IMG/VR virus record: IMGVR_UViG_3300028601_000019
Coordinates: 4,130 to 68,129 of that record
Direction: 5' to 3' (one strand)
DNA length: 64,000 bases
Source: a virus
Lineage: Duplodnaviria; Heunggongvirae; Uroviricota; Caudoviricetes
Below are positions 940-61,974 of the stretch, one piece after another. The first letter of the stretch is position 1; each line of letters opens with the position of its first letter. The notes beneath the pieces are model-generated. The model searched no databases, was not told the origin of the DNA, and saw nothing but the letters and a program-made list of their open reading frames with translations. The position numbers and the translations under genes are program-made.

Positions 940-1058
940 GATTATAATTCCTTTTCGTTTTGAATTATAATTATTTATTTAGATTCATTTTCTAATGAAG
1001 AACATTGATGTTTTAATGAATTTTTCATTGATTTCCTCTCAATTATAAATTTGTTTTC

Positions 1059-1066
1059 TATAAATA
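1059..1066 (+). promoter_or_regulatory. T4-type late promoter motif TATAAATA. It sits in an 8-nt insertion that is present in IS copy 1 and absent from copy 2, upstream of tnpB.
   Basis: Exact TATAAATA. Copy 2 reads TTCTATATATAATATT at the same place. Confidence 0.4.
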
Positions 1067-1098
1067 GATATATAATATTAAAACTAGGTTGTAAACAA

Positions 1099-2280
1099 AT
1101 GATTAGATCATCCAAACATATTTTGAAGTATCAGACTGGTTCCAAGACGAAAGTCTTGAACCAGCTTTTTGACGACTTCAGAACTGACTTGTCTTGGTAT
1201 ATAGATCTGATCATTGCTGGGCAATTGCCTCTAACCAAGTTCATGTCATCCAAGGACTTGCCTTCGGGGATCATTACTCATTCTGCTTGGAAACAAATTC
1301 TGTATAAAACAGCATCTGAAATTGTTCGTTCTCAATACAAACAAGCCTCTAATCAAAGATTCAAGCATTACAAGAAATTGTTCCACAAGTGCAGTAGTGC
1401 AAACAAACATTGTTTTTTTACTGACAAACGATTTAGTGAACTGAATCTCAAGCCAATTCATCAATCTAGGTTCTTTAGTAAGCCAGACTTAAAGAACTTT
1501 TCAATCACACTAGATTCTAGATTGATTGACTTTCAATATGGCTTGCATTTCGATGAATTTGTAAGAATTAAAACCCCATTGTTCCATGAGCACAAGAAAC
1601 GTGCCATTACAATCAATATTCCAATCAAACATCACAAACATAGTCGTAAATTCGAGTCATGGGAACGAAAGAACTCAGTTCGATTGACATTAAAGAACGG
1701 AGTCATGAATCTTGAATTGATCTATGAGAAAGATGCACCTAAACTAAAGACAGATGGTTCTGTTCTTGGAATCGATCAGGGCTACAAGAAACTAATGTCA
1801 TGCTCCGATGGAACATTTCTTGGTTCTGAGATGGAATCAATCTACAAGTTCATTTCCAACAAAAAACAAGGCTCTAAGGCTTTCAAGAGAGCATTGATTC
1901 ATAGGACCAATGAAACGAACAGAATTTGTAATTCTCTAGATCTTTCTGATGTCAAAGAACTTGTTGTCGAGGACCTCAAGAACTTGAAACATAAATCAAA
2001 ACTGTCAACAAATTTTATGAACAAGATGCAACGCTGGGTTTATCCAGCAGTACTGGGCAAATTGGAATCCTTGGCTGAAATGAACGGTGTTCATTTCACG
2101 AAGGTGAATCCTGCTTATACTTCGCAGACATGTTCTAATTGCGGATGTGTAGATCCTGAGTCTCGCCAAGGCGAAGACTTCATGTGTCTGCATTGTGGCT
2201 ATGAGATTGATGCAGACTGAAATGCATCAATCAACATTGCCCGTTTGGGAATTTATAGTTCCCAAAGTCCAAAAAGCTAA
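1099..2280 (+). CDS. tnpB: TnpB (IS605 OrfB family RuvC-like RNA-guided nuclease), about 393 aa.
   Basis: RuvC-I motif GIDQG; RuvC-II motif VVEDLKNL; zinc finger CSNCGC...CLHCG; RuvC-III motif DAD-TGA-NASINI. The ORF continues 20 codons past the TGA to a TAA. Confidence 0.85.
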
Positions 2281-2318
2281 TTTCATTGTTTTTCATTGAA
2301 ATTGGCAACTATGATCTC

Positions 2319-27331: not shown

Positions 27332-27405
27332 GGCCCAGTAACTCAACTGGATAGAGTACGAACCTCCTAAGTTCGAAGTTGCAAGATCGTACCTTGCCGG
27401 GGTCA
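27332..27405 (+). tRNA. tRNA-Arg (anticodon CCU), 74 nt, with one A-G mismatch in the acceptor stem.
   Basis: Hand-folded cloverleaf: acceptor GGCCCAG, D-arm ACTC/GAGT, anticodon arm CGAAC-CTCCTAA-GTTCG, T-arm GCAAG-ATCGTAC-CTTGC. Confidence 0.6.
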
Positions 27406-27411
27406 CAAAAT

Positions 27412-27484
27412 GCTCCTGTAGTTCAATTAGCAGAATCCCCGGCTCATAACCGGACAGTTGTAGGTGCAAATCCTGCCGGGAGCA
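27412..27484 (+). tRNA. tRNA with a CAU anticodon (elongator Met, or Ile if modified to lysidine), 73 nt.
   Basis: Hand-folded cloverleaf: acceptor GCTCCTG/CGGGAGC, anticodon loop CTCATAA, T-arm GTAGG-TGCAAAT-CCTGC. The 1:72 pair is G-C, so it is not an initiator. Confidence 0.65.
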
Positions 27485-27508
27485 CAAACTTTTAAAAGGA
27501 GATTTGAA

Positions 27509-29683: not shown

Positions 29684-30226
29684 ATGGAAAAATATTTTAA
29701 AAATTTGGTTGAAGATTTAGAATGTTTACTTGATGATTATGTTGTTTACCCATATAAAAGAATTAGAGATAAGTATTACGATGTTAAATATGGAATCAAG
29801 AACCTAATTCGATGGTTCCCAGTTATTTGGGGTGATCGTGATTGGGATTTTGCATATATGTTTGCTCTTCTCGAAAAGAAGTTTGAACACTATGAAAAAG
29901 AGTGGAGTTCTGATGCATGTTTTGTTGTAGGATCTGAAAAACAAGTAAAGAGATTCAAGATTTGCAAAGAACTTTGTAGACGATTAAAAGATGATTGGTA
30001 TTATCATGAAAATACTTTTATGTTCCATGATAAGAAATGGGGGGATTTAGAATTTACAGATAGCCCTAGATGTATTACACGAACAAATATAAAATCTAAG
30101 GAAGATGATGATCTTGAAGCAACAGAATCCCTTAGATTATTTAAGATTGAAAATGCAAGAAAAGATGCGGATGTTGAACTTCTTCAAATGTATATTAGAA
30201 AATATTGGAAGACATGGTGGTGGTAA
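29684..30226 (+). CDS. Hypothetical protein, 180 aa.
   Basis: ORF with a ribosome-binding site. Confidence 0.5.
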   Translation: MEKYFKNLVEDLECLLDDYVVYPYKRIRDKYYDVKYGIKNLIRWFPVIWGDRDWDFAYMFALLEKKFEHYEKEWSSDACFVVGSEKQVKRFKICKELCRRLKDDWYYHENTFMFHDKKWGDLEFTDSPRCITRTNIKSKEDDDLEATESLRLFKIENARKDADVELLQMYIRKYWKTWWW

Positions 30227-30979: not shown

Positions 30980-31345
30980 ATGGTTATTGATAATGTTGAT
31001 GAACTAAACGACCAGATTAGTAAATTTTTAAAATTTGAAAAGGATCTTAAAGATTATTTGATTGGTTATTTTAAAAACAAATCAATTTCTCTTGAAGATA
31101 GATGGGCTACCTTTGAAAGAATTGGGAACATTTTTCCAATCCATCCATGGTACATATCACTTAAAGAGCTTGATAATAATGATTTAGAATGGTATGCTGA
31201 TTTTGGATATGATAGATATAGAACAGTTGAATTTCTTGAAGTTGTTCAAACAATTGAAGAAAATGATTATATGGACGTAGATTTAAATAGATTAAAAGAA
31301 GAAATTCTTGAAAGTGGATATTTCGGGTTCACTCACGATTGGTAA
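30980..31345 (+). CDS. Hypothetical protein, 121 aa.
   Basis: GGAGGG ribosome-binding site. Confidence 0.5.
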   Translation: MVIDNVDELNDQISKFLKFEKDLKDYLIGYFKNKSISLEDRWATFERIGNIFPIHPWYISLKELDNNDLEWYADFGYDRYRTVEFLEVVQTIEENDYMDVDLNRLKEEILESGYFGFTHDW

Positions 31346-31584
31346 AAATTAACGGAGGAAAAATGTTAAAATTATATTGTTGGGTTGTTCTTGTGTTTTT
31401 TATTTTGGTAGGAAACTTTGGGTTTGTGTTACCCTATCTTGTATCTGCTGCTCATACTGAGCTTGTTCTTTTGGGTTGTGTTATTGGGTTGATTATTCCT
31501 ATTGCGTTAGTGTTTATTGTTAAATATAAAATTATCCCAATTGTTAAAGAAATGATTGGAAAAGCTACCAAAGGAGAAATGTAG
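31339..31584 (+). CDS. Small protein with two transmembrane helices, 81 aa. A possible NfeD-like partner of the SPFH gene.
   Basis: Two hydrophobic helices. Lies immediately upstream of the SPFH gene. Confidence 0.45.
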   Translation: MVKINGGKMLKLYCWVVLVFFILVGNFGFVLPYLVSAAHTELVLLGCVIGLIIPIALVFIVKYKIIPIVKEMIGKATKGEM

Positions 31585-31585
31585 A

Positions 31586-32449
31586 ATGAAAAAGATTATG
31601 TTGCTTGTGGGTCTAATGTTGATGATGTTTATGTGTACCGGATGCCTTGAGCGTGTTCCTTCTGGCCATGTTGGTGTAAAGGTTTTCCTACTTGGCGGTG
31701 ATAAAGGCGTAGATAGTCAAGAACTTGGGGTTGGTCGTTATTGGATTGGATGGAATGAGGAATTACATATTTTCCCAACATTTACTCAAAACTATGTTTG
31801 GACTGCCGATGTAACAGAGGGTTCTGAAACAGATGAATCAATTACATTCCAAACAATGGAAGGACTATCAGTAAATGCTGATATTGGTATTGCATATCAT
31901 ATTGATCCTACTAAGGTATCAGTAATTTTTCAGAAGTATCGTAAGGGTGTGCAAGAAATTACTGATATTTACCTACGAAACATTGTAAGAGATGCCTTTG
32001 CAACTGTCGCATCTAATCGCCCTGTAGAGTTTGTTTATGGTGAAGGAAAATCTGAACTTAGAACAGAAGTTGAAAATATTGTAAAGGCTAAAGTTGAACC
32101 AATTGGTATTATCATTGAACAGATTTCTTTTGTAGGCAATTTAAGACTTCCAGAAACTGTTATTAGTGCCATTAATGCTAAGATTGAGGCAACACAAACG
32201 GCACAGAGAGCAGAAAATCAACTTCGTGAAGCAGAGGCAGAAGCACGAAAGAAGATTGCAGAAGCTCAAGGCCAAGCCGAATCCATTAAGTTGGTCGCAA
32301 TTTCACAAGCCGAAGCTAACAAGATTCTTAGTGCATCTATTACATCTAACCTAGTAGAATATAAGCGTATTGAAAAGTGGAACGGGATCATGCCAACATA
32401 TATGGCAGGGAACATGCCAACACCAATGTTAAATATGAAGTCTGAGTAA
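31586..32449 (+). CDS. SPFH/Band-7 (prohibitin/HflK-like) family lipoprotein, 287 aa.
   Basis: Signal peptide with a lipobox (MKKIMLLVGLMLMMFMCTGC). SPFH core GHVGVKVFLLGG... A C-terminal EA-repeat coiled coil (REAEAEARKKIAEAQGQAE). Confidence 0.65.
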   Translation: MKKIMLLVGLMLMMFMCTGCLERVPSGHVGVKVFLLGGDKGVDSQELGVGRYWIGWNEELHIFPTFTQNYVWTADVTEGSETDESITFQTMEGLSVNADIGIAYHIDPTKVSVIFQKYRKGVQEITDIYLRNIVRDAFATVASNRPVEFVYGEGKSELRTEVENIVKAKVEPIGIIIEQISFVGNLRLPETVISAINAKIEATQTAQRAENQLREAEAEARKKIAEAQGQAESIKLVAISQAEANKILSASITSNLVEYKRIEKWNGIMPTYMAGNMPTPMLNMKSE

Positions 32450-32466
32450 AATAACTGTTTACAAGT

Positions 32467-32505
32467 ATGAAAGGGTTTGATAGGGTTTTCTTATCAAACC
32501 CTTTC
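32467..32505 (+). terminator. Hairpin GAAAGGGTTTGATA-gggttttct-TATCAAACCCTTTC, with a 14-bp stem.
   Basis: Perfect inverted repeat after the SPFH gene. The following T-run is weak. Confidence 0.55.
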
Positions 32506-32522
32506 ACATTTAGGAGATTAGA

Positions 32523-32591
32523 AATGGCAACAATTCACAATAATGGATGGGATTTTGTTAAAGAAGGAGAAACATACCAATATTATATTTA
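32523..32591 (+). CDS. Short ORF of 22 aa (MATIHNNGWDFVKEGETYQYYI) that ends at the IS left boundary. It may be the remnant of an interrupted gene.
   Basis: GGAG ribosome-binding site. The stop TAG is the first IS nucleotides. Confidence 0.25.
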
Positions 32592-33926
32592 GATTCATTT
32601 TCTAATGAAGAATATTGATGTTTTAATGAATTTTTCATTAATTTCCTCCTGAAATTATAAAATTAGTCAAAAACAAAATTTGTTTTCTATATATAATATT
32701 AAAATTAGGATTTCCAATGATTAGATCATCCAAGCACATTTTGAAGTATCAGACTGGTTCAAAGACGAGAGTCTTGAACCAGCTGTTTGACGACTTCAGA
32801 ACAGATTTGTCTTGGTACATAGATCTAATCATTTCGGGGCAATTGCCACTGACCAAGTTCATGTCATCCAAGGACTTGCCTTCAGGGATCATTACTCACT
32901 CCCAATGGAAACAAATTCTATACAAGACAGCATCTGAAATTGTTCGTTCTCAATACAAACAAGCCTCAAATCGACGATTCAAGCATTACAAGAAATTGTT
33001 CCATAGGTGCATTAGTGCAAATAAGCATTGTTCTTTCACTGATAAGAGATTTAGTGAACTGAACCTCAAACCAATTCATCAATCTAGGTTCTTTAGTAAA
33101 CCAGATCTAAAGAATTTCTCAATAACACTAGATTTAAGATTGATTGATTTTCAATATGGACTTCATTTCGATGAATTTGTTAGAATCAAGACTCCATTGT
33201 TTCATGAACACAAGAAACGAGCTATTACAATCAATGTCCCAATCAAGCATCACAAGCATAGTCGTAAGTTTGAGTCTTGGAAACGCAAGAACTCAGTTAG
33301 ATTGACACTAAAGAACAATGTCATGAATCTTGAATTGATCTATGAGAAAGAAGCTCCAAAACTAAAGACCAATGGTTCTGTTCTTGGAATTGATCAAGGC
33401 TATAAGAAATTATTGTCTTGTTCCGATGGAACATTTCTTGGTTCCGAAATGGAATCAATCTACAAATTCATTTCAAACAAAAAGCAAGGTTCCAAATCCT
33501 TCAAGAGAGCATTGATTCATAGGACCAATGAAACGAATCGAATTTGTAATTCTCTAAATCTTTCTAATGTCAAAGAGCTTGTTGTCGAGGACCTCAAGAA
33601 CCTAAAACATAAAACTAAACTAAGTACTAATTTTATGAACAAGATGCAACGCTGGGTTTACCCAGCAGTACTGGGCAAATTGGAATCCTTGGCTGAAATG
33701 AACGATGTTCATTTCACGAAGGTGAATCCTGCTTATACTTCGCAGACATGTTCACAATGCGGATGTGTAGATCCTGGGTCTCGCCAAGGCGAAGGCTTCA
33801 GGTGTTTGCACTGTGGACATGAGATTGATGCAGATTGAAATGCATCAATCAATATTGCCCGTTTGGGAATTTATAGTTCCCAAAGTCCAAAAAGCTAATT
33901 TCATTGTTCTTCATTGAAATTAGTAA
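32588..33926 (+). mobile_element. IS605/IS1341-family TnpB-only element, copy 2.
   Basis: More than 90% identical to 978..2312 across the left end, tnpB and the right end. Confidence 0.75.
32717..33898 (+). CDS. tnpB: TnpB, copy 2, about 393 aa. The terminal TGA is read as Trp.
   Basis: Same motifs as copy 1: CSQCGC...CLHCGHEIDAD-TGA-NASINIARLG. Confidence 0.85.
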
Positions 33927-34149
33927 CTATCTATAGTAACAAAAAAACGTAGTTGTGGGAAACCTTCATATGAATCAATGTGTTTTGCTCTACAAAACAT
34001 GGCCCAAGTTATGAAGGAAAACAACATTACAGAAGTTTTTATGCCTAGAATTGGTTGTGGTTTAGACCGACTATCTTGGCCAGCAGTAAGGGAACAACTC
34101 AAATATGTGTTTGGCGATAGTGAGGTAACTTTCAATGTCTACTATCTCT
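33927..34149 (+). pseudogene. Macro-domain C-terminal fragment. The N-terminal half is missing and the frame opens exactly at the IS right end.
   Basis: YESMCFALQNMAQVMKENNITEVFMPRIGCGLDRLSW...EVTFNVYY resembles the macro C-terminal strands (SIAFPAISTG type). There is no VNAAN/GGGV region upstream. Confidence 0.4.
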
Positions 34150-34632
34150 AATATATTTGAAAATAGTTTGATTGAAAGTTTTAAAGGAGATTATGTATTT
34201 TTAAGTAATTTTTATTTTACATATGTTCTTTATGATGGCATTGTTTGAAAAACAGCTGAGCATGCATATCAGGCCTCTAAAACTCTTGATCCAAAAGAAA
34301 AGAAATGGATATTAGATTGTCCTACTCCACACCTTACCAAAGATTTGGGCCAAAGACTATCATTAAGGGAAGATTGGAATAAAGTAAAGATTCAAATTAT
34401 GAGAGATATTATATTTCAAAAGTTTGAAGCTAATAAAAACATTAAAGATAAACTTATTGCAACACATCCATTTATACTAATTGAGGGAAATGTATGGCAT
34501 GACAACTTTTGAGGGATGTGTAAATGTATAAAATGTGAAAATTTAAAAGTAAAGCATAATCACCTAGGAATTATTCTTATGGAATTGCGATCTTTATATA
34601 TAAACAATTCAGTGTTTTTTAAGGAGAATTAA
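34135..34632 (+). CDS. NADAR (YbiA/DUF1768) domain protein, 165 aa, with 2 in-frame TGA.
   Basis: GDYVFLSNFY and TAEHAYQASK motifs. Confidence 0.6.
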
Positions 34633-34953
34633 ATGAAGGTTATTACATTGTGTGGATCTACAAAATTTCGCAAGGAATTTGAAGATGTAATGAGAGAAGA
34701 AACACTAAAAGGAAATCTTGTATTTAGTGTTGGATTGTTTGGACATTCTGAGGGAATGAATATGTCAAGTCCATTAAAGAAAATGCTTGATAAACTTCAT
34801 TTCCGTAAGATTGATATGTCTGATGAAATTTTTGTTATTAATCCAAATGGTTATATTGGTCTTTCTACTTGTGATGAAATCTATTATGCTTTATCTCAAG
34901 GGAAAACTGTAAGATTTTTAGAGGGTGATATGGAGAAACATGAATGTCTATAA
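34633..34953 (+). CDS. Nucleoside 2-deoxyribosyltransferase/DNPH1 (Rcl)-like protein, 106 aa.
   Basis: ITLCGSTKF ... DEIFVINPNGYIGLSTCDEIYYALSQGKTV resembles the Rcl/NDT Rossmann-like pattern. Confidence 0.4.
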   Translation: MKVITLCGSTKFRKEFEDVMREETLKGNLVFSVGLFGHSEGMNMSSPLKKMLDKLHFRKIDMSDEIFVINPNGYIGLSTCDEIYYALSQGKTVRFLEGDMEKHECL

Positions 34954-36971
34954 TTCACTTAGAAGAACTTAAGCTTAAGAATTTTCTATCTTATGGATCT
35001 ACTTTATCTACTTTCAAGATTAATTCAGGGTTGACTTTAATCTCGGGTCAGAACAAAGATACATCAAGATCAAATGGCGCAGGTAAGTCTGGACTCAATG
35101 AAAGTATTGTGTGGTCTTTATTTGGAAAAACAATCAAAGATATTTCAAAAGATCAGATTCTTAACTGGAAAAATAAAAAGAAATGTTATGTTGAAATTTC
35201 TTTTACTATTGATGAAATTAAGTATCGTGTCGAACGAGGGATTAAACCAAATATTTTAAAGATCTTTAAGGATGATGTTGAAATAGAACAAATGGCATCT
35301 GTTGTTGATTTTCAAAAATATCTAGAAGATGAAATTTTAAAAATTGATTATAAAACTTTTGTTTCTTTATTTTATTATAATCCAAATAACTTTGTTTCGA
35401 TTTTTGATATTCCTAAAGCTCAAAAAAGAAAGTTTTTGGAAAACATCTTTAATCTTGAAGCATATTCTGATATTAAGAATAAGATAAATAAAAAAGTCTC
35501 AAGCATAGATAACACTGTTCTTGAAAATAAAACAGCAATGTCAAAAAATGAAGAACGAATTTCATCATTAGAATCAAATATCTCAAAATACAATAATGAT
35601 ATTATTTCTATTGATATTTCAACAAATACACTAAATAGGTTAAACAAAGAACTATTAGAAATTCCTGATGATGCACCATCAAATGATGATATTTCTAACT
35701 TAGAAGAAAATATTGCAAATGTTAGAAATCTTGTAGAAAAAATCAACATCTCTCTATCTGAAAACAGGTCAGAGATTAAATCTAATCCATACACAAATGA
35801 TGCTGAAGATAAGCTAAAAGAGTGTGAGACAAAATTAGGTGGAATAACCCAAGATAAAGACCTTGAAAATTTGCTTTATCAAGAATCACTTGAATTTAAA
35901 ATTAAGAAGGATTCATTAAATAATGACCTTCGTAAAGTGTCCCAGAAGGGCGAATATGAGGACCTTGATAACTGTCCTATTTGTGGTTCGAAAATGGATA
36001 ATGAATCGCTTAGGAAGCATAAAGCGCAAGAAAAAGAGCGCATTCAAAAGGAGCTATCTGAGCTTACTTCCAAAGAAAAAGATATTATCGAAAAATATAA
36101 TAATATCAAACAACAGAATTTGGATTTCACATATTACAGTTCAGAAATTGAAAGGTTATCGAACGCTGTTGAAATAAACAAAAAATTTACTGAGCTAATG
36201 AAGTCTAAAGAGAAACTTACTAATACATATGATACATATAAAAGTTCTTTGGATGCAAAAGAACTTCAATTAAAGGAAATGAGGGAACTTGTATCAAAAT
36301 CTAATAAAGAACCTTTACTTGCTCTGATTAAAGCAGAATCTGAAAAAATTGAAGAAAGAAAAATTCAGATTCAGAAGCTTGAAGAATATAAAGGAAATGC
36401 TATTGCTGAAGTTACTCTTTTAAAGAGTGAAAATGTTGAACTCAATAAAAAGAACACTAACATTAGTCTTCTAAAAGATTACTACAGCTTCCTGAAGAGG
36501 CTCTGTGGTGACGATCAAATTAAGCAATATGCCATTAGTAGTCTAGTACCTATCATTAACCAGAGAGCTAACCATTACCTTTCGGAAGCGGCTGTAGGCT
36601 TCTATATTAAGTTAGATGGATGGCTTGATTGTGAAATTAAGGGTGCAGGAATTTCAAATGCTACTGCAAATAGTTTATCTGGTGGTGAGAAAAAATCTTT
36701 AGAACTTGCACTTCAATTTGCTCTGTATGATATTTCAAAACTTAAATGTAAAAATTTACCAAATATTCTTATTCTTGATGAAATTCTTGATTCATCAGTA
36801 GATGTAAAGGGAATTGAAAATCTCATGAATATTGTAAAAGTAAAACAAACTGAAGATGATCTTGCTTGTTTAATTATTTCACATAGAAAAGAAGTTAGTT
36901 CGTTTACATTTGATAATAGAATGACTATAGTAAAATCAAATGGCTATAGTTCAATTAAAGAGGAGAATTAA
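34944..36971 (+). CDS. gp46: Rad50/SbcC-like recombination ATPase (T4 gp46-like), 675 aa.
   Basis: Walker A motif GQNKDTSRSNGAGKSGL. Long coiled-coil region. ABC signature LSGGEKKS. D-loop ILILDEILD. No TGA. Confidence 0.8.
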   Translation: MSIIHLEELKLKNFLSYGSTLSTFKINSGLTLISGQNKDTSRSNGAGKSGLNESIVWSLFGKTIKDISKDQILNWKNKKKCYVEISFTIDEIKYRVERGIKPNILKIFKDDVEIEQMASVVDFQKYLEDEILKIDYKTFVSLFYYNPNNFVSIFDIPKAQKRKFLENIFNLEAYSDIKNKINKKVSSIDNTVLENKTAMSKNEERISSLESNISKYNNDIISIDISTNTLNRLNKELLEIPDDAPSNDDISNLEENIANVRNLVEKINISLSENRSEIKSNPYTNDAEDKLKECETKLGGITQDKDLENLLYQESLEFKIKKDSLNNDLRKVSQKGEYEDLDNCPICGSKMDNESLRKHKAQEKERIQKELSELTSKEKDIIEKYNNIKQQNLDFTYYSSEIERLSNAVEINKKFTELMKSKEKLTNTYDTYKSSLDAKELQLKEMRELVSKSNKEPLLALIKAESEKIEERKIQIQKLEEYKGNAIAEVTLLKSENVELNKKNTNISLLKDYYSFLKRLCGDDQIKQYAISSLVPIINQRANHYLSEAAVGFYIKLDGWLDCEIKGAGISNATANSLSGGEKKSLELALQFALYDISKLKCKNLPNILILDEILDSSVDVKGIENLMNIVKVKQTEDDLACLIISHRKEVSSFTFDNRMTIVKSNGYSSIKEEN

Positions 36972-39337: not shown

Positions 39338-39838
39338 TATGTATCATTATAATTTAAATTTAATTTTTAATTTTTTTAGAAGTCTTTTGCTTCCAAAATG
39401 AATAGGTGATGGAATTTCATCAAAAGATTTAATTCATTTAAAATCGGAGTGTTCTCAATTTAGTCTAGGTTCAAAAATTTCATCTACTGTTATTATAAAT
39501 GTTGTAAAAACAAAACTACCATCTTCAAAAATATCGAATGGTTTTTCTGAAATTTTAAAGGGGCCATTATATCGCAGTTCTTCTTTAAATTCTCTTTTGG
39601 CTGTTATTTTTGGTCATTTATCATAATCATCGACTTTTCCTGAAACAACAATGCTTCAAGTTCCTGCTTCTTTGACTGTTTTTCATCCGTCTATTGTATC
39701 TTTTTGTCTTTGAAGAACTAAAAATGCTTTTTCTTTCTTAGCGTATATAATAGCACCCGCAGCTTCTTTTCCAAAATAAGATCTTTCAGATTCACCACTT
39801 TTCAGATCCATTCTCAAAAATTTAATAAATTGTGTCAT
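39338..39838 (-). CDS. NUDIX hydrolase, 166 aa, with 6 in-frame TGA.
   Basis: Nudix-box-like SGKVDDYDK-TGA-PKITAKREFKEEL. Length divisible by 3. Confidence 0.45.
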
Positions 39839-39870: not shown

Positions 39871-42800
39871 TTATCCTTTACATTCATCTAATAGCATTAG
39901 AAATTGTGAATATAAACCTTCGGGGTCATCTGTCATAAATGCATCAGTAAATGGTACTCGAATAACACCATCTAAATCTCTTTCTGTATGAAAGACCACC
40001 CCAATTCCAAACTGATTAGAATCTACATACATTTTTTTAGATTTTTTAATAATCTTAGATTCAAAGTCTTGCCAAGGCATCATTTCCTTATGAGTTGGTA
40101 CTAATCCTTGATGAAAAACAAATGTAATAACATTTTTTGATTTAATCATTTCTTGCTCCTGTAGAAAATCTGCAAATGATTTAAAATACTTATTTTCTTT
40201 AATAGCATGGGGATACTGCTTTTTAAGTTTATTCACATATGATTTTGTTGTGAACTTTACTTTGTGTGCTTTAACAATATTAATCTGCGCTTGTGGTCAG
40301 CAAAGTGCTCATTCAGGAGATCTAATAGAATCGGTTCCAGTTCCTGCAACATGATAATGAAGACCTTTTGCTCCAAGATTTACCTCACATTCATATATAG
40401 TCCCAATAGTTCCTTCTTTACGACTAAATCCTTCATCACCAAGATATTGAGCAACTTTCTCAATAACATTAGAAACATAAATACCGCCAACAGTACTAAT
40501 AGTTGCTCTGTGATATAAATCTGAAGGATAGTTTACTATAGCTCTAGTATTTGCTGCACCAGAATCTATAGGAAAATATCCATTTTCCAAATATTCTACA
40601 TAATCATTAGTCTTTTCTATAGCATCACCATCTGCCTTTGCTTTTACTAATGTCATATTGTGGATGTCTAGCATTCTACCAACAGTTGAAGAGTCGTTGG
40701 CCGGAATAACAGTAAATCCAAATCTTAAAATAAAGTTAGAAGCAGTTAATCCCGAAGCATGAAATGCTGGTATGAGATTATCATTTCCAAATCTGGTTTT
40801 AAACTCTTCAAACTGAGGATACTTCATATTAACATTAAATGATTCAAGAAATTCAACTGCTGATGAACCATGCATTCCATTATAATATTTTGAATATTCA
40901 ACTGTCTTCTCATTGAGTTGATCTTGACTTTCTTCAATTTTATCGATTTTAATATCTGGAATTAATGCATCACTCTTTAAAACATCACTTACTCTCTCAA
41001 AATAAGAGGCCCAGGATTCTCGAGGTTTCTTTCTTAACATTGCACCTTTAAATTCAAAGTTATTATAGGTTAATAAGGTTTTAATTCTATTTGGTGTCAA
41101 TTGTGTAAATGGTTTTAGTGGGTTATTCGAAACATAAATATCATTTAAAAGAGGATAAATTAGTAGTTGCTCTTTAAGAGTATTTACTAAGCTATTTTTA
41201 ATTTTATCTGGAAATGCATCTAATAACTTATCAAGATTTTGTATTTTATCTTTGCTAGAAAGCATATCTAACATGATAAATTCAAGACTATTGGTTTTGT
41301 TAAGAAGTCTTTTACCTGATGAAATCTTATCCCAAATTCCACTTACATCCGGATCTGAAAAATATTCTACAAGAGCATCAACTCCATGATCATCATAAAG
41401 CTTTCCAATATAGAATGAGTTCTTATCAAGATACTGAGAGATAACATCTGTTGCTTCTTTAGATGTATAATAATTTGGGTCTCCAAGTCTTATTAAAAGA
41501 AATGAATTCATATAGGATCTTGTAAGAAAATCTTTAAGAGTATCTTTATCAGAAATAAAGTCCAAAAGAAATGAATCTTTTAACTTTTCGGAATCATAAG
41601 AACCAAAATCATCTAATACACTAAAAAGTCGAGCTTTATTATTTTTAGTAGATGTTTGAAAAAGTTCTTTTGCTTCATCCTTAGTTATTATACTTAGGTT
41701 TGCCATATAATTAAGATCTAAAACTATGCTTTTAATTTTACCGCCAGCCAAAAGCTTGTTTTTTAAATGAGTTAAAATTTTATCTTTAAATGCAAGTAAT
41801 GTTGGCTTATTAAGTTTATATGATATAGCCACAGAAAAATAATTATACTCAGTGTCTGAATTCAATTGATCAATTCTTTCATCAATAGCCTTAAAAACTT
41901 TTGCATTTTTGGAAAGATCATAATCTGTATCACGAAATAATTCAATAAATGACCTAAAATTAGAGTGACCAAGATTCTCACTATCTAAATTAACAAATAA
42001 CTCTGTATTATTAAGAATAAAATCAAGAGAAACATTAAAACTTCTAATTAAACTAAAAGGAATATATTCACCAATCAATTTAATTATAAGTTTTATTAAA
42101 TAATAATATTCTGTAGAACCAACAGGCACATTTTTAAATAATGTGTTTACAACTGTTTCATCACTTAATGAATAAACACTCAATGAATTTTGTTGTGTGT
42201 TAGAAGAAATATGATTTAAAAGCTTATTAAAATCATCTCATTTGCCTTTTGTAGCAAAATAAGTTAAACATCTAAATGCCAAAAATTGTTCATACTTTGA
42301 AGCGCCATAATATGGAAATCATTTAAAATTTGAAGGTGTATCGAATACTAAATCTTCAATTAGATATGAGTTATCTAATCTATATTCTCCATATAGATAA
42401 AAAGCTAAAATAATATATTTTGACATATATCTATGATCACTTTTAACTTCATTTAAAAAATCATCATATTTAAGTCCATACTTTTCCATAAATTGTTTAA
42501 TATCTAACCCAGTATCTTGTAAATAAGATTTGTAAAAATTATCTCATTTTGATTCTCCGTCAATAATGTCGGAATTTAACATAGCAAATGTTAGGCCAGA
42601 AGCAACTTTATCTGCAAATGTTAATCGTGAATCTGCTCATTTATATGCATCACATGATTTATTTGTTAACGTTATAAATCTTTTAGCAAGATCTTTTGCT
42701 GGAGTATTATCCTTTCCAATAAATGCAATTAAATCTTCTTCTGGAAGATATTCAATTTGAGCATTTTTAATATAAGAAAAAATAGGAAACTTAGTATCAC

Positions 42801-44085
42801 TATAAATGAAAAATAAAAACTTATCAGTATCAAGACTATGAGAAGCTATAATAGATTTCAGTATTTCAGTACTATCATTCTTAAAATCTCTATCAAAAAC
42901 AAATCTTATATTACTTAATGTTTTATCTAAAAAGTCTTGTGGAACACCAGCTCTAGCTAAACTTCCTATAGTATCTCCAATGAAAGTTTCAATATCATTA
43001 ACAAAAAGATACATAGAATACAAATCACTCATACTATCCATTTTAGAATATAAAAATAATCTACCAAAAGATCGTCTATAATCATCAGCCAAAATAAAAT
43101 CTTTAAAGAAGGTGGGTACTTTAGAAATATCACCAAGAATAGGTGTAAATAAGGTTTCTATATTTGGAAATTCTTGTTTAATAGTGGCAGGTATTGGGTG
43201 AAAAAAGAAAGCTGCAAGATCTTCATATGAAAATGTATACGCAATATGACTTGCAGGAATTCCAAATTTAGCGCAACTTTGAATTACTTCCTTAATAGAA
43301 GAATTATTGCCGTACATATACATTAATATAGCATATTTTGCATGATAAGATGCTCTATCAGAACCAATAAAAGCAACAATGTCATTCCATGTTACCTGTT
43401 TTGTAACTGTAGGAGAAGCAGTAATAACAGAAGTTTTGACAGGGATTGGATCGGGTTTTGGTGCTCCAGTTAATGCAGACTTAACAGGAGACACTGTCTG
43501 AGTTTGTGTGTTAGGATCTATTACATTAGTTGTTGGTGAGCTCTGGGTGCCATCAGTAACACCAGCAAGCCTCTTATACATAACTCTAAATTCATGAGCT
43601 CTTTTATTTTGTAGGGCCAAATTATAAAGCTCTGGAAGCATATCAGCAAGTGTCTTATTACCCTTTACGAAATCCTTAATTAATGCTGAAATTTGTGGGT
43701 ATGGATATACAGAACTAACTTTGATTTTTTTAATAATTTCAGTTCTAACAAGATTCTCATCAAGACCGCCTAATGTTCCGGTTTTAATCTTGGCAAGCAT
43801 TTTGGTAATCTTTGTCATTGTCATATCAGGAATAACCTTCTTGTCATCAATGATCTTAAGAATTACCATTAAATCTGTGTCAGAATCAGTTATCTTTTCA
43901 AGTCTAACTGATGATTGTTTAAAATATTGAATAAGTTTGATATCATCTTTATATTTTGCATAAAGGCCCAAAAATCCTAGAAAATTGATTCAGAATTCAT
44001 TAGTAATTTTCTTTTCCTTAGTAAGAAATTTATCTTTTCCTTCTTGATCTTTTCATATATGGTTCTCAATTAAAAGTTCTCTCAT
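39871..44085 (-). CDS. Very large protein of 1404 aa, read through about 8 in-frame TGA. Its C-terminal third carries an ADP-ribosyltransferase-like R/STS/ExE pattern (FILRFGF ... ATISTVGG ... IYECEV). A candidate Alt-like injected effector.
   Basis: Three standard-code ORFs (39871-40236, 40309-42183, 42637-43971) share one frame. Hand translation of the gaps shows only TGA between them. ATG at 44085 with a GAAGGAGA ribosome-binding site. Confidence 0.5.
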
Positions 44086-44268: not shown

Positions 44269-44826
44269 TTAATCCCCTATCAGTTCCACATGTAATTTGT
44301 TTCCTACTTTTTTAAGGATTCTAAATTTAGATTCTTTGTTAAGAAGAATCTCCTCTTCTGCTGCAAAACCACTTAATTCTTTTACAGACATTGCTTTAGA
44401 TCCTTTTGGAACGTGTATTTGTAGTATTGTGGAATCTCTTGACCTTCCAAATCCTATTGCTCGTGTTTCATCAGAAGATGTAGAAACAAACCCCTTATCT
44501 TCAATAACATCATCAAAATCAACTTTAGCAGCAATATGAGCTTTTCCTTTTTTATGAGCGGCCTTTATTTTTTCCTTATATGAATTATAATAGTCTTTAG
44601 TTACTTCTTTCAAATGATGTTTATTTTTGTCAGATTCTTGGACCCCTTCGCTTTTCTTTTCAGTAGACGGCTTATCTATATTGTCAAAATGCTTTTGAAC
44701 ATCATCTAGATGTTTACCAATTAGATCATCATCAAGCCCCTTTAAAATATGTCCATTTTTATCTATTTGAACATGCCGGCCATTAATTGTTATTCATTTT
44801 TCGTTTATATAGGAATAGAAATTCAT
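44269..44826 (-). CDS. ADP-ribosyltransferase (R-S-E class, C3/iota/Alt-like), 185 aa, with 1 in-frame TGA.
   Basis: STS motif GFVSTSSDE. ARTT/ExE motif GFAAEEEILL (compare EQEVLL in C3 and iota toxin). Candidate catalytic Arg in NGRHV. The ATG overlaps the stop of the upstream gene (TAATG). Confidence 0.55.
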
Positions 44827-45116
44827 TACATATCCTCTATTTCATCTTTCCCTTCCTCTTCGGTGGGAACATCTTCTTTATCCAACATTTCAAGTAAACC
44901 TTTAAATTCACCAATATGAACCTTTTCTTCTCTTGCTACATCAAGAAGAACTTCTTTTACTTTCTTGTTCTTTACTTTTCTAGACATCAACTGATACAAG
45001 ACAATTGCATCTTGCTCCGCAACAATAGCCATTCTTAAAATTTCATCATCTGTTTTATCATTGAGATTCATTTCGTTAGATAACATCTCATTAAGTATGA
45101 ATTCTTTAAATTTCAT
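44826..45116 (-). CDS. Ferritin-like/rubrerythrin-family small protein, 96 aa, with an acidic C-terminal tail.
   Basis: The pattern AEQDAIVLY...VAREEKVHIGEFKGLL suggests a ferritin-like ExxH four-helix-bundle half. Translationally coupled to the ART gene. Confidence 0.35.
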   Translation of the reverse strand: MKFKEFILNEMLSNEMNLNDKTDDEILRMAIVAEQDAIVLYQLMSRKVKNKKVKEVLLDVAREEKVHIGEFKGLLEMLDKEDVPTEEEGKDEIEDM

Positions 45117-60414: not shown

Positions 60415-61974
60415 ATGGCTGAAAAAGATACTTTAAGAGATAATGTAAGGAAGGATGTTAAACAGACTACAACACTTCCTTTTAGTTTTAAAAATTTTGT
60501 TACTGGTATAGGGCTTGCTATTTCAAGATCTGGTGCACGGACATGAGATAAATTAGCTGATATGCCAGATGAAATAAAAAATGGATTTTCAAAAGTTTCT
60601 AGTACTATTCAATCTAGTACTACTGAAATTATGGGGTCCGCTTTAAATTCAATGATTGGAGATATTAAGTCTTTAGCATCGGGAATAAAAGATATTACTA
60701 CAGGAACTTTTAAAAAACTTTTTTCATTCTTTGGTGGTGATAATGAAGAGCTCAGTGAAGAAAAGAAACAAACAAAAACTCTTGGCAATATTTTTAAGAT
60801 TTTTAAGAAATGAAGCATTAGAGATATGTTTAAACCTAAAGAAAAGAATAAAGATGATGGAGGTTTTTTTGCCCCATTAGCTATTATAGGTCTTGCACTT
60901 GGAGCTATCACTGGTGGAATAGCTGCTGGTATTGGTGGTGTCATTGAATATTTTCTTATTCCTTTTAAAGTGGTTTTAAATAGTTTAAGAGGTGTTACTA
61001 CTCTTTTAAAGGAATCTTCAATTGGAAAACTTTTTATTGATTTTTTTGGAAAAGTAAGAGCATTTTTTAGTGGGTGAATTGATAACGCTTTAGTTTCTAT
61101 TAATAGTTTTTTTGGAAAGTTTAAAATTTTTGCTGGATTTTTTAAAGGGTTTAGTATTGGATTTATGAAACTATTTTCAAAAATTCCTGTTATCGGATGA
61201 TTTATTACTGGCGTAATGGCAATTATTGATTTTTTTACTGGGTTTTTCGGAACGGAAGGAAGCTTCTTTGAAAAAATAAAGGCCGGCTTAATAAACATGA
61301 CCACTGGATTTTTTTCCCCAATTTTTGAATTTATAGGATGAATTGGAGATTGAATTTTAAATCTATTTGGAATAAATTCTGATATAGGAACAACCTTAAA
61401 TACTTGATTTTCTAATCTTTTAAATTTCTTTTTTAATTTTCCTATAGTTGAAAAACTTAAGAATGCTTGAGAAGGAATACAAAATGCTGCAAATGCACTT
61501 GTTGAATCATTAAAAAATTGACTAATATCATTAATTCCCTCTTTCGATTCTATTAAAGAAATGCTTCCATCTTTTGACTCTATTAAAAAATCTATAATTG
61601 GGACAAGAGATACTATCAAAGATGAGGCTAAAAATGCTTGAAATTCGGCAGGCGAATATATTGGATCTTTTTTTGAAAAGGACAATTTATCACCAGCTCA
61701 GACTATTAGTGATCTTGATTCATCTACTAAAGCAAAAGAAGTATCCAATAATAAAGAAATGGCAAAAGCATTATATAAAATGACAGAACAACAAATTAAA
61801 GAATCTAAAAAACGTGATGAAGAAAAGAAAGAAACAGTTAATCAGCAAGTTAATGTTTCTTCAGTTCAAAATTCAAGAGGATCTTCCGGAGGCACATTTA
61901 TTGAGGCTCCGGATGAAATTGAAAACTTTGGAATTGTATTTATGAATAAAACAACACTAGGAGGAACGTTCTAA
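60415..61974 (+). CDS. gp29: Tail tape-measure-like protein of about 519 aa, Gly-rich with hydrophobic segments and about 9 in-frame TGA.
   Basis: ORFs 60562, 60826 and 61759 share a frame. Position after the tube gene and before a gp48-like gene, matching the T4 order 29-48. Confidence 0.55.

What the first reader, a model, noticed from the sequence alone, without database searches (positions are those of the whole stretch)
33927..34953. Macro fragment, NADAR and Rcl/NDT-like gene cluster next to gp46
Three consecutive small genes carry ADP-ribose or nucleotide N-glycoside processing folds: a macro C-terminal fragment, NADAR (FLSNFY / TAEHAYQASK) and a DNPH1/2-deoxyribosyltransferase-like Rossmann protein. 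NADAR and macro domains can reverse nucleic-acid ADP-ribosylation. A phage-borne set suggests counter-defence against DarT-like or other ADP-ribosylating systems. It could also manage the phage's own ARTs.
Basis: partly seen in the sequence, partly recalled or inferred. Interest (0 to 1): 0.7.

Follow-up and report, generated by a model that had tools for sequence, protein, structure and literature searches.

The report
Phage NADAR gene beside broken macro gene
An uncultured T4-like phage that reads TGA as tryptophan carries an apparently intact ADP-ribose-removing NADAR enzyme, the dead stump of a second such enzyme (a macro domain cut off by a TnpB mobile element) and an unrelated small nucleotide-enzyme-like gene; these are members of known kinds, not a new system.

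Summary
The three reading frames exist where stated, but they are not a three-gene system.

- **NADAR (34135-34632).** It matches Pfam NADAR at E=1.9e-24. It belongs to the YbiA subfamily and keeps every catalytic or ligand residue I could map. It is a whole gene only if its two in-frame TGA codons mean Trp. Both align with Trp in E. coli YbiA, and the whole window behaves as genetic code 4.
- **Macro fragment (33927-34151).** This is the last 74 residues of a TARG1/OARD1-like macro domain. Related phages have the intact 138-residue gene, overlapping the NADAR start. Here a 1.35-kb TnpB element (32586-33930; second copy at 976-2312) replaces 430 bp, including the first 66 macro codons. The stump still looks selected (omega 0.04), so the loss is recent.

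Phage NADARs (AdfN) and phage DarG2-like macro proteins are already published as anti-DarT counter-defences. Verdict: a new member of known kinds, of modest interest.

The parts
32524..32592 (+). 22-codon stump of a 97-aa gene of unknown function. The gene is intact in the related phages L005-L007. Here it runs into the TnpB element and ends at a TAG.
   Evidence: blastn of window 32524-32583 against L005 8810-8869 gives 78% identity, and homology stops at 32583. tblastn matches aa 1-20 only.
32586..33930 (+). TnpB-only IS200/IS605-type element, copy 1. It has a left-end hairpin at 32623-32641 and the tnpB ORF at 32717-33898, with one in-frame TGA at 33836-33838. Its 3' part is strongly structured and omega-RNA-like, and there is a right-end hairpin at 33895-33923. 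It replaces 430 bp of ancestral sequence. No tnpA gene lies inside it.
   Evidence: Pfam Cas12f1-like_TNB E=9.7e-20 and PHROG 506 transposase E=1.5e-28. The ends are defined by alignment with copy 2. The RNA fold of 33720-33930 has z=-6.0.
33927..34151 (+). Remnant of a TARG1/OARD1-like macro domain gene, last 74 codons plus the stop. It keeps the TKK Lys and the GCGLDRL Asp but lacks residues 1-66. TAG and TAA stops lie immediately upstream in frame. The first ATG is at 33978.
   Evidence: PHROG 335 E=1.3e-10 and NCBIfam DarG E=2.4e-7. It is 86.5% identical to aa 65-138 of the L005 macro, which matches human OARD1 4j5r at E=1.4e-23. No N-terminal piece exists elsewhere in the window.
34135..34632 (+). 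NADAR gene, YbiA subfamily, 165 aa under code 4. W38 and W126 are encoded by TGA (34246-34248 and 34510-34512). Its start overlaps the end of the macro frame by 17 nt.
   Evidence: Pfam PF08719 E=1.9e-24 and TIGR02464 83.9 bits against a cut-off of 73.7. The alignment to YbiA 2b3w and PnNADAR 8bau maps E42, K49, K69, W81, K85, E117, D123 and W126 onto the residues described in PMC11543638. Omega is 0.12 against the L005 orthologue.
34633..34953 (+). 106-aa gene with an N-deoxyribosyltransferase-like (DUF4406-related) flavodoxin-type fold. It has no TGA. It is inserted between NADAR and gp46 relative to the related phages, and its end overlaps the gp46 start by 10 nt.
34944..36971 (+). gp46/SbcC-like recombination nuclease subunit, 675 aa. 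It is context only and not part of the cluster's function.
   Evidence: Pfam AAA_23 and SMC_N on the identical product. About 26% identity to the gp46 'recombination endonuclease' of cultured T4-like cyanophages.
976..2312 (+). Second copy of the same TnpB element. It shows that the element is a discrete repeated unit.
   Evidence: blastn gives 88.5% identity over 1,348 bp, and the TnpB proteins are 93.9% identical. dS is 0.50 and omega 0.07 between the copies. The same in-frame TGA at aa 374 is kept.

Best explanation
The locus is an accessory-gene slot upstream of gp46 in an uncultured, very divergent T4-like phage that decodes TGA as tryptophan.

The ancestral arrangement survives in related phages. 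It is an overlapping pair: a TARG1/DarG-type macro domain followed by a YbiA-type NADAR. By analogy with characterised enzymes, these would remove ADP-ribose from thymine and from guanine (or cytosine) bases of nucleic acid. That would undo damage by DarT-like or pierisin-like ADP-ribosyltransferases of the host.

In this phage a TnpB-only IS200/IS605-type element now occupies the place of 430 bp. The lost stretch held the 3' part of the upstream 97-aa gene and the first 66 codons of the macro gene. The macro arm is therefore dead, and only the NADAR arm remains. NADAR is apparently intact and under purifying selection.

The 106-aa gene with a deoxyribosyltransferase-like fold is a separate insertion. 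It most likely acts on nucleosides or nucleotides and is not part of an ADP-ribose module.

Shown here: gene structures, family and fold assignments, the code, the element and the deletion, selection, and synteny. Inferred: the biochemical substrates, and that the biological role is counter-defence.
For: Code 4:
- Total length of ORFs of at least 100 aa rises from 12,425 to 23,546 aa with table 4.
- Both NADAR TGA codons align with Trp of YbiA. One corresponds to W133 of PnNADAR, an ADP-ribose contact.
- In orthologue pairs, TGA aligns with TGG 13 times, with TGA 11 times, and with any other single amino acid at most 3 times.

NADAR:
- Family matches.
- E42 and K49 correspond to AdfN-T4 E36 and K43, whose mutation impairs counter-defence.
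- E117 is the YbiA-subfamily hallmark Glu.
- Omega is 0.12.
- All NADAR and YbiA types tested hydrolyse guanosine-ADPr in vitro (PMC11125620). YbiA types also act on cytidine-ADPr.
- Diverse phage NADARs neutralise DarTG1.

Macro:
- The relatives' 138-aa protein matches OARD1 at E=1.4e-23.
- The window keeps only aa 65-138.
- Omega of 0.04 with saturated dS shows that it was functional for nearly all of the divergence time.

TnpB element.

The same arrangement appears in three of the four metagenome contigs fetched. The fourth is too short to reach the macro remnant.

Third gene. It is absent in relatives and has unlinked contexts elsewhere.
Against: - No activity was measured.
- The host, and whether it has any DarT-like enzyme, is unknown.
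- The NADAR is not detectably similar to the validated T4 AdfN (pairwise E=0.13). Its best NCBIfam model is the riboflavin-intermediate N-glycosidase type.
- E. coli YbiA and T4 gp30.3 did not rescue cells from DarT1 in one study.
- PnNADAR R79 aligns with Gln73 here, with Arg74 adjacent.
- How the 430-bp deletion arose is not explained. IS200/IS605 elements normally insert without deleting.
- Whether NADAR is still transcribed and translated downstream of the element is not known.
Confidence: 0.6

Rival explanations
1. All three genes form one working ADP-ribose / N-glycoside processing module.
For: The three frames abut or overlap on one strand. All three folds act on N-glycosidic bonds in known relatives.
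Against: The macro gene lacks residues 1-66, including the N-terminal ligand-binding half. The third gene is missing in L005-L007, where NADAR abuts gp46. Four homologues of the third gene in other phages have no NADAR or macro neighbour.
Confidence: 0.07
2. NADAR (and formerly the macro protein) tidies up after the phage's own ADP-ribosyltransferase rather than countering a host enzyme. For example, it could remove off-target ADP-ribose from phage nucleic acid.
For: An ART-family gene (PF03496, 185 aa, 44269-44826 minus strand) and a NUDIX gene (39347-39838 minus strand) lie within 10 kb. A YbiA-type NADAR serves as antitoxin to an ART (YarT) in myxobacteria. In T4 the alt gene lies about 3 kb from 30.3/adfN.
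Against: The ART gene is about 10 kb away on the other strand, separated by core recombination genes. PF03496 enzymes are mainly protein-modifying. NADARs tested so far act on bases, and no phage example of this role is published in the papers read.
Confidence: 0.15
3. NADAR acts here as a small-molecule N-glycosidase, either for riboflavin-pathway damage control like E. coli YbiA or on another ribosylated metabolite.
For: TIGR02464 'riboflavin biosynthesis intermediates N-glycosidase' scores above its cut-off (83.9 against 73.7). The closest solved structure is YbiA. The authors of PMC11543638 note that non-DarT NADARs may have other substrates.
Against: No riboflavin genes were seen among the Pfam-annotated neighbours. 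The ancestral coupling is to a TARG1/DarG-type macro domain. YbiA itself hydrolyses guanosine-ADPr.
Confidence: 0.12
4. The NADAR frame is a decaying pseudogene with two premature stop codons, so nothing in the interval is functional except the third gene.
For: Under table 11 the frame is broken into ORFs of 37, 30, 55 and 38 aa. The JGI gene calls split it in the same way (L001).
Against: Both TGAs sit at conserved Trp positions. Omega is 0.12. TGA exchanges with TGG between orthologues. Code 4 doubles the ORF content. Essential genes such as the UvsX/RecA-like, UvsW-like and 1404-aa genes also carry in-frame TGA.
Confidence: 0.04

Closest known systems
Phage NADAR anti-DarT factors (AdfN: T4 gp30.3, Bas32 and Bas60 NADARs; PMC11825919) and the NADAR superfamily (PMC11543638, PMC11125620)
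   Same: A single-domain NADAR in a T4-like phage, with the catalytic Glu and Lys seven residues apart in the E-H-x-x-Q-x-x-K motif. The predicted activity is removal of ADP-ribose from guanine.
   Different: It belongs to the YbiA subfamily (Glu at the PnNADAR E125 position, where T4-type phage NADARs have His). It has no significant pairwise similarity to T4 gp30.3 (E=0.13). Two of its Trp residues are written as TGA. Its function is untested.
TARG1/OARD1 and DarG-type macro domains, including the chimallivirus DarG2-like antitoxin (PMC13309987)
   Same: The relatives' 138-aa protein aligns end to end with human OARD1 (E=1.4e-23). The remnant keeps the TKK lysine and the GCGLDRL aspartate.
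   Different: In this window only the last 74 residues remain, so it is a pseudogene. It has no DarT-binding domain. It is paired with NADAR instead of with a toxin.
Nucleoside 2-deoxyribosyltransferase / DNPH1 (Rcl) / DUF4406 superfamily
IS200/IS605-family TnpB-only elements with an omega RNA
   Same: A TnpB with a RuvC motif and a zinc ribbon, subterminal hairpins, a highly structured and conserved 3' end, and at least two copies in the genome.
   Different: It has no tnpA and sits in a phage genome. Its presence coincides with a 430-bp deletion rather than a clean insertion. The TAM and guide were not determined.

Membership tests
NADAR (Pfam PF08719), YbiA subfamily | Profile match above the curated cut-off over the whole domain | tested here: met
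   PF08719 scores 87.2 bits against a cut-off of 35.1 and covers 9-160 of 163 profile positions. TIGR02464 scores 83.9 against 73.7.
NADAR (Pfam PF08719), YbiA subfamily | Catalytic Glu and Lys (PnNADAR E43/K50; AdfN-T4 E36/K43) and the ADP-ribose contacts W89, D130 and W133 | tested here: met
   E42, K49, W81, D123 and W126 map by alignment to 8bau and 2b3w. R79 aligns with Q73, with R74 adjacent, and R93 with K85.
NADAR (Pfam PF08719), YbiA subfamily | Glu at the PnNADAR E125 position (Asp in DarT1-linked NADARs, His in T4-type phage NADARs) | tested here: met
   E117 in LIEGN aligns with that Glu.
NADAR (Pfam PF08719), YbiA subfamily | Uninterrupted reading frame | tested here: met
   Met only under TGA=Trp. 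The two in-frame TGAs lie at conserved Trp positions, and the code is supported.
AdfN anti-DarTG1 factors | Removes ADP-ribose from DarT1-modified DNA and restores phage growth on DarTG1 hosts | not testable with these tools
   This needs biochemistry and plaque assays. Sequence similarity to T4 AdfN is not significant.
Macro domain, TARG1/OARD1/DarG type | Complete macro fold of about 130-150 residues, including the N-terminal ligand-binding loop | tested here: not met
   Only aa 65-138 are present. Stops lie upstream in frame. Pfam Macro is below its cut-off.
Macro domain, TARG1/OARD1/DarG type | Catalytic Lys (TARG1 K84) and Asp (TARG1 D125) | tested here: met
   TKK and GCGLDRL are retained in the remnant and align with OARD1 through the L005 orthologue. 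The TARG1 residue numbers come from my own knowledge of TARG1.
Nucleoside 2-deoxyribosyltransferase / DNPH1 / DUF4406 | Profile match to PF05014 or PF14359 | tested here: not met
   The window protein has no hit at E<=1. 8 of 55 homologues hit PF14359, best E=4.4e-6.
Nucleoside 2-deoxyribosyltransferase / DNPH1 / DUF4406 | NDT-type flavodoxin-like fold | tested here: met
Nucleoside 2-deoxyribosyltransferase / DNPH1 / DUF4406 | Catalytic Glu nucleophile after strand 4 | tested here: inconclusive
   An invariant E82 lies in the helix that follows strand 65-69. No residue-level structural alignment was available.
IS200/IS605 TnpB element | TnpB protein with a RuvC-III motif and a zinc ribbon | tested here: met
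   Cas12f1-like_TNB E=9.7e-20. CxxC...CxxC and DADWNASINI are present.
IS200/IS605 TnpB element | Discrete repeated unit with conserved ends and subterminal hairpins | tested here: met
   Two copies with sharp boundaries and hairpins.
IS200/IS605 TnpB element | TnpA transposase, or a defined TAM with an omega RNA guide | tested here: inconclusive
   No other ORF fits inside the element. The 3' region is structured (z=-6.0) but has no Rfam match. A shared TATTT lies 5' of the left end in both copies, and two copies are too few to define a TAM.

The most novel reading that the evidence does not exclude
The overlapping TARG1-type macro + YbiA-type NADAR pair in this TGA-recoded T4-like lineage could be a two-enzyme operon that erases both thymine- and guanine/cytosine-linked ADP-ribose from phage DNA. 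The window would then catch its thymine arm freshly destroyed by a TnpB element spreading through phage genomes. The neighbouring mini deoxyribosyltransferase-fold family (more than 1,200 members, invariant Cys-Gly-Ser, two His and one Glu) could be an undescribed phage enzyme acting on a nucleotide-derived immune signal or on nucleotide pools.
Probability: 0.15. Interest if true: 0.55.

Novelty: new member of a known kind. Interest (0 to 1): 0.3.

Why it matters
The direct yield is modest. It is one more phage NADAR, of the YbiA type rather than the T4 AdfN type, and it adds to the evidence that reversing base ADP-ribosylation is a common phage need.

Three points are more useful:
- This gene, and many others in the window, can only be read with TGA=Trp. 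Standard-code pipelines shred the locus, as the JGI gene calls on the same contig do.
- The macro + NADAR pairing in the relatives suggests a testable dual-specificity counter-defence.
- A TnpB element has recently knocked out one arm. This is a natural example of a guide-RNA nuclease element reshaping anti-defence content in a large lytic-type phage.

The 106-aa family is widespread and uncharacterised, and would be a cheap biochemical target.

Tried and rejected
1. I first thought the 22-codon ORF upstream of tnpB (…GETYQYYI) was the macro N-terminus split by a clean insertion, joining as YYI|VTKK like TARG1. This was rejected. In L005-L007 that ORF is the start of a separate 97-aa gene, and the macro N-terminus (aa 1-66) is simply missing.

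2. IStron or group I intron that would splice the macro back together: no Rfam match at E<=1 in 31000-36000.

3. Near-identical DNA in cultured phages: none.

4. Sequence search of solved structures with a 55-sequence profile of the 106-aa family: only noise, E>=0.16.

5. Exact search for the element's left end in IMG/VR: no match.

6. Back-translated search for close TnpB relatives in GTDB species genomes, for a host clue: none. The protein search gave only about 53% identical hits, named Candidatus Shapirobacteria. The host remains unknown.

7. Alignment of the UvsX-like protein to RecA to test the TGA positions: uninformative columns, and my transcription of that protein was assembled by hand. 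I replaced it with the orthologue codon tally.

8. Search for an intact, near-identical macro allele in the protein database: none. Table-11 gene calling in that database limits this test.

9. Sample accessions in the literature: none found.

10. The AFDB fold library was unavailable.

11. Papers on NARP3 and on NDT in diaminopurine phages gave no link to this small family.

Full report
**What is in the sequence**

On the + strand between 33927 and 34953 there are three consecutive frames, directly upstream of a 675-aa SbcC/gp46-like gene at 34944-36971. The mechanical ORF list (table 11) shows the middle one as four short ORFs. Reading the frame through shows why. It has two in-frame TGA codons, at 34246-34248 and 34510-34512. 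With TGA read as Trp it is one 165-aa protein.

**Genetic code**

Several independent observations say that TGA is a sense codon here and that it means Trp.
- Summed length of ORFs of at least 100 aa rises from 12,425 aa (table 11) to 23,546 aa (table 4), against 15,652 aa for TAG recoding.
- The two TGA positions of the NADAR frame align with Trp in E. coli YbiA (…dgktWptsEH…, …dayWGdg…). The second also aligns with the Trp of Phytophthora NADAR that contacts ADP-ribose.
- In 19 ORF pairs between the window and a related phage contig (L006; some are short overlapping frames that may not be genes), TGA aligns with TGG 13 times and with TGA 11 times. It aligns with any other single amino acid at most 3 times.
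- Both copies of the tnpB gene keep a TGA inside the DADxNAxxNI motif, although they differ at half of their synonymous sites.

No suppressor tRNA lies in the window, only tRNA-Arg(CCT) and tRNA-Met. Recombination genes carry TGA too, so the code seems needed throughout infection. The host is unknown.

**NADAR (34135-34632)**

- Family matches:
  - Pfam PF08719 E=1.9e-24.
  - PHROG 1017 E=1.3e-36.
  - TIGR02464 above its cut-off.
  - YbiA 2b3w E=3.5e-17 and PnNADAR 8bau E=7e-4.
- Residues E42, K49, K69, W81, K85, E117, D123 and W126 line up with PnNADAR E43, K50, K75, W89, R93, E125, D130 and W133.
- E42 and K49 correspond to E36 and K43 of T4 AdfN, whose mutation weakens counter-defence.
- Glu at the E125 position marks the YbiA subfamily. 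It differs from T4-type phage NADARs (His) and DarT1-linked NADARs (Asp).
- Pairwise similarity to T4 gp30.3 is accordingly not significant (E=0.13).
- Similar NADARs occur in 457 phage records.
- Against the orthologue in the related phages the gene is 75% identical, with omega 0.12.

**Macro fragment (33927-34151)**

The 74 codons match PHROG 335 (E=1.3e-10) and the DarG model (E=2.4e-7). Three IMG/VR contigs (L005-L007) have a gp46 that is 72% identical to the window's. They show the ancestral layout:
- Band_7 gene;
- a 145-aa gene;
- a 97-aa gene;
- a 138-aa macro gene, overlapping by 17 nt with
- NADAR, followed directly by
- gp46.

The 138-aa protein aligns end to end with human OARD1/TARG1 (E=1.4e-23). 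The window has only residues 65-138 of it, at 86.5% identity. No N-terminal piece exists anywhere else in the 64 kb. The remnant keeps the TKK lysine and the GCGLDRL aspartate. It lacks the whole N-terminal half, and TAG and TAA stops lie in frame just upstream.

Between window and relative the remnant has pS 0.68 and pN 0.074 (omega 0.04). It therefore evolved as a working gene for almost all of the time since the two phages split, and the truncation is recent.

**Why it is a fragment**

Homology with L005 stops at window 32583, which is codon 20 of the 97-aa gene. It resumes at 33932, around macro codons 66-67. The 1,348 bp in between replace 430 bp of L005. They are a TnpB element:
- tnpB is 393 aa under code 4, with Cas12f1-like_TNB E=9.7e-20 and PHROG transposase E=1.5e-28.
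- It has left and right subterminal hairpins.
- Its 3' end is strongly structured and conserved, as expected for an omega RNA (z=-6.0).
- A second copy at 976-2312 is 88.5% identical. Its alignment gives sharp element ends at about 32586/32591 and at 33930.

There is no tnpA. The element ends coincide with the homology breakpoints, so the element's arrival and the deletion are linked. I could not work out how. The same junction is present in an independent ENA assembly (L003). The macro remnant and NADAR are identical in a Logan assembly (L002). A further short Logan contig (L004) carries only NADAR and the 106-aa gene.

**The 106-aa gene (34633-34953)**

- It has no Pfam, PHROG or NCBIfam family of its own.
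- It has more than 1,241 homologues, and 8 of 55 sampled touch DUF4406.
- The AlphaFold2 model is confident (pLDDT 90.8).
- In BFVD the top hit is a phage protein named N-deoxyribosyltransferase (42% identity, TM 0.86).
- Invariant residues include C7-G8-S9, H38, H56, K59, N70, Y74, G76, S78-T79 and E82.
- E82 lies where I recall the NDT/DNPH1 nucleophile to be, but no residue-level superposition was available.

The gene is absent from L005-L007, where NADAR abuts gp46. In four other phage contigs its homologues lie near other genes, never near NADAR or macro:
- SbcCD, thymidylate synthase, DHFR and MazG;
- DNA polymerase A;
- a ResIII helicase;
- small T4-type early genes.

It is best seen as an independent accessory gene of nucleotide metabolism.

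**How it most likely works**

Published work gives the following:
- All NADAR types tested, including YbiA, hydrolyse guanosine-ADP-ribose in vitro (PMC11125620).
- YbiA-type NADARs also reverse cytidine-ADP-ribose (PMC12945103).
- Several unrelated phage NADARs neutralise DarTG1 (PMC11825919).
- A phage DarG2-like macro protein protects against DarTG2 (PMC13309987, abstract).

The simplest reading is that the ancestral pair removed ADP-ribose from two kinds of modified base, and that this phage now keeps only the NADAR arm. This is inference, because nothing here measures activity and the host's arsenal is unknown. Alternatives are listed with their weights:
- service to the phage's own ART (PF03496 gene at 44269-44826);
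- a small-molecule N-glycosidase role;
- a pseudogene.

**Novelty and score**

Phage NADARs, phage TARG1/DarG-like macro domains, NDT-fold phage proteins, TnpB elements and TGA-recoded phages are each known kinds. The specific combination is new but not surprising. That combination is a YbiA-type NADAR readable only in code 4, its macro partner freshly truncated by a TnpB element, and a mini-NDT inserted next door. I rate it 0.3, as a new member of a known kind.

Noticed in passing
whole window 1-64000: The window is recoded so that TGA means Trp. Use is uneven. gp46 (34944-36971) has 0 TGA and 3 TGG, 29684-30226 has 0 TGA and 10 TGG, and 60415-61974 has 10 TGA and 0 TGG. Table-11 gene calls on the source contig split many genes, including the NADAR, tnpB, UvsX-like and 1404-aa genes.
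   Followed up: partly
window 976-2312: A second copy of the TnpB element (88.5% nt identity, TnpB 93.9% aa identity). dS of about 0.5 between the copies suggests old or independent acquisitions rather than a recent duplication.
   Followed up: partly
window 27332-27485: Adjacent tRNA-Arg(CCT) and tRNA-Met(CAT). The related phages have tRNA-Arg(TCT) and tRNA-Met at the matching place. No TGA-reading tRNA occurs in the window or in the loci scanned.
   Followed up: no
window 39347-39838 (-), 39871-44085 (-), 44269-44826 (-), 44826-45116 (-): On the minus strand lie a NUDIX gene, a 1404-aa protein with no Pfam hit, an ADP-ribosyltransferase-family gene (PF03496) and a rubrerythrin-like gene. This is a further NAD/ADP-ribose-related set about 5-10 kb from NADAR.
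   Followed up: no
window 32450-32523 compared with L005 8359-8796: A 145-aa gene present between the Band_7 gene and the 97-aa gene in L005 and L006 is absent from the window. This is another indel in the same accessory slot.
   Followed up: no
L008 3448-4698: A more distant relative (gp46 38% identical) has a 416-aa ORF beginning MEVYVLNKEGQPLMPTRP…. This looks like the PLMP N-terminus of IscB-type RNA-guided nucleases. I did not verify it with a profile search.
   Followed up: no
window 32717-33898: The only named homologues of this TnpB (about 53% identity) come from Candidatus Shapirobacteria MAGs. Many others are on 60-250-kb metagenomic contigs. This gives no usable host clue.
   Followed up: partly
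window 24633-44953 compared with L001: The JGI contig Ga0485107_001083 is not base-identical to the window (TnpB 99.7% identical). The Logan and ENA contigs L002-L004 are 100% identical, so several near-identical strains exist in different samples.
   Followed up: no
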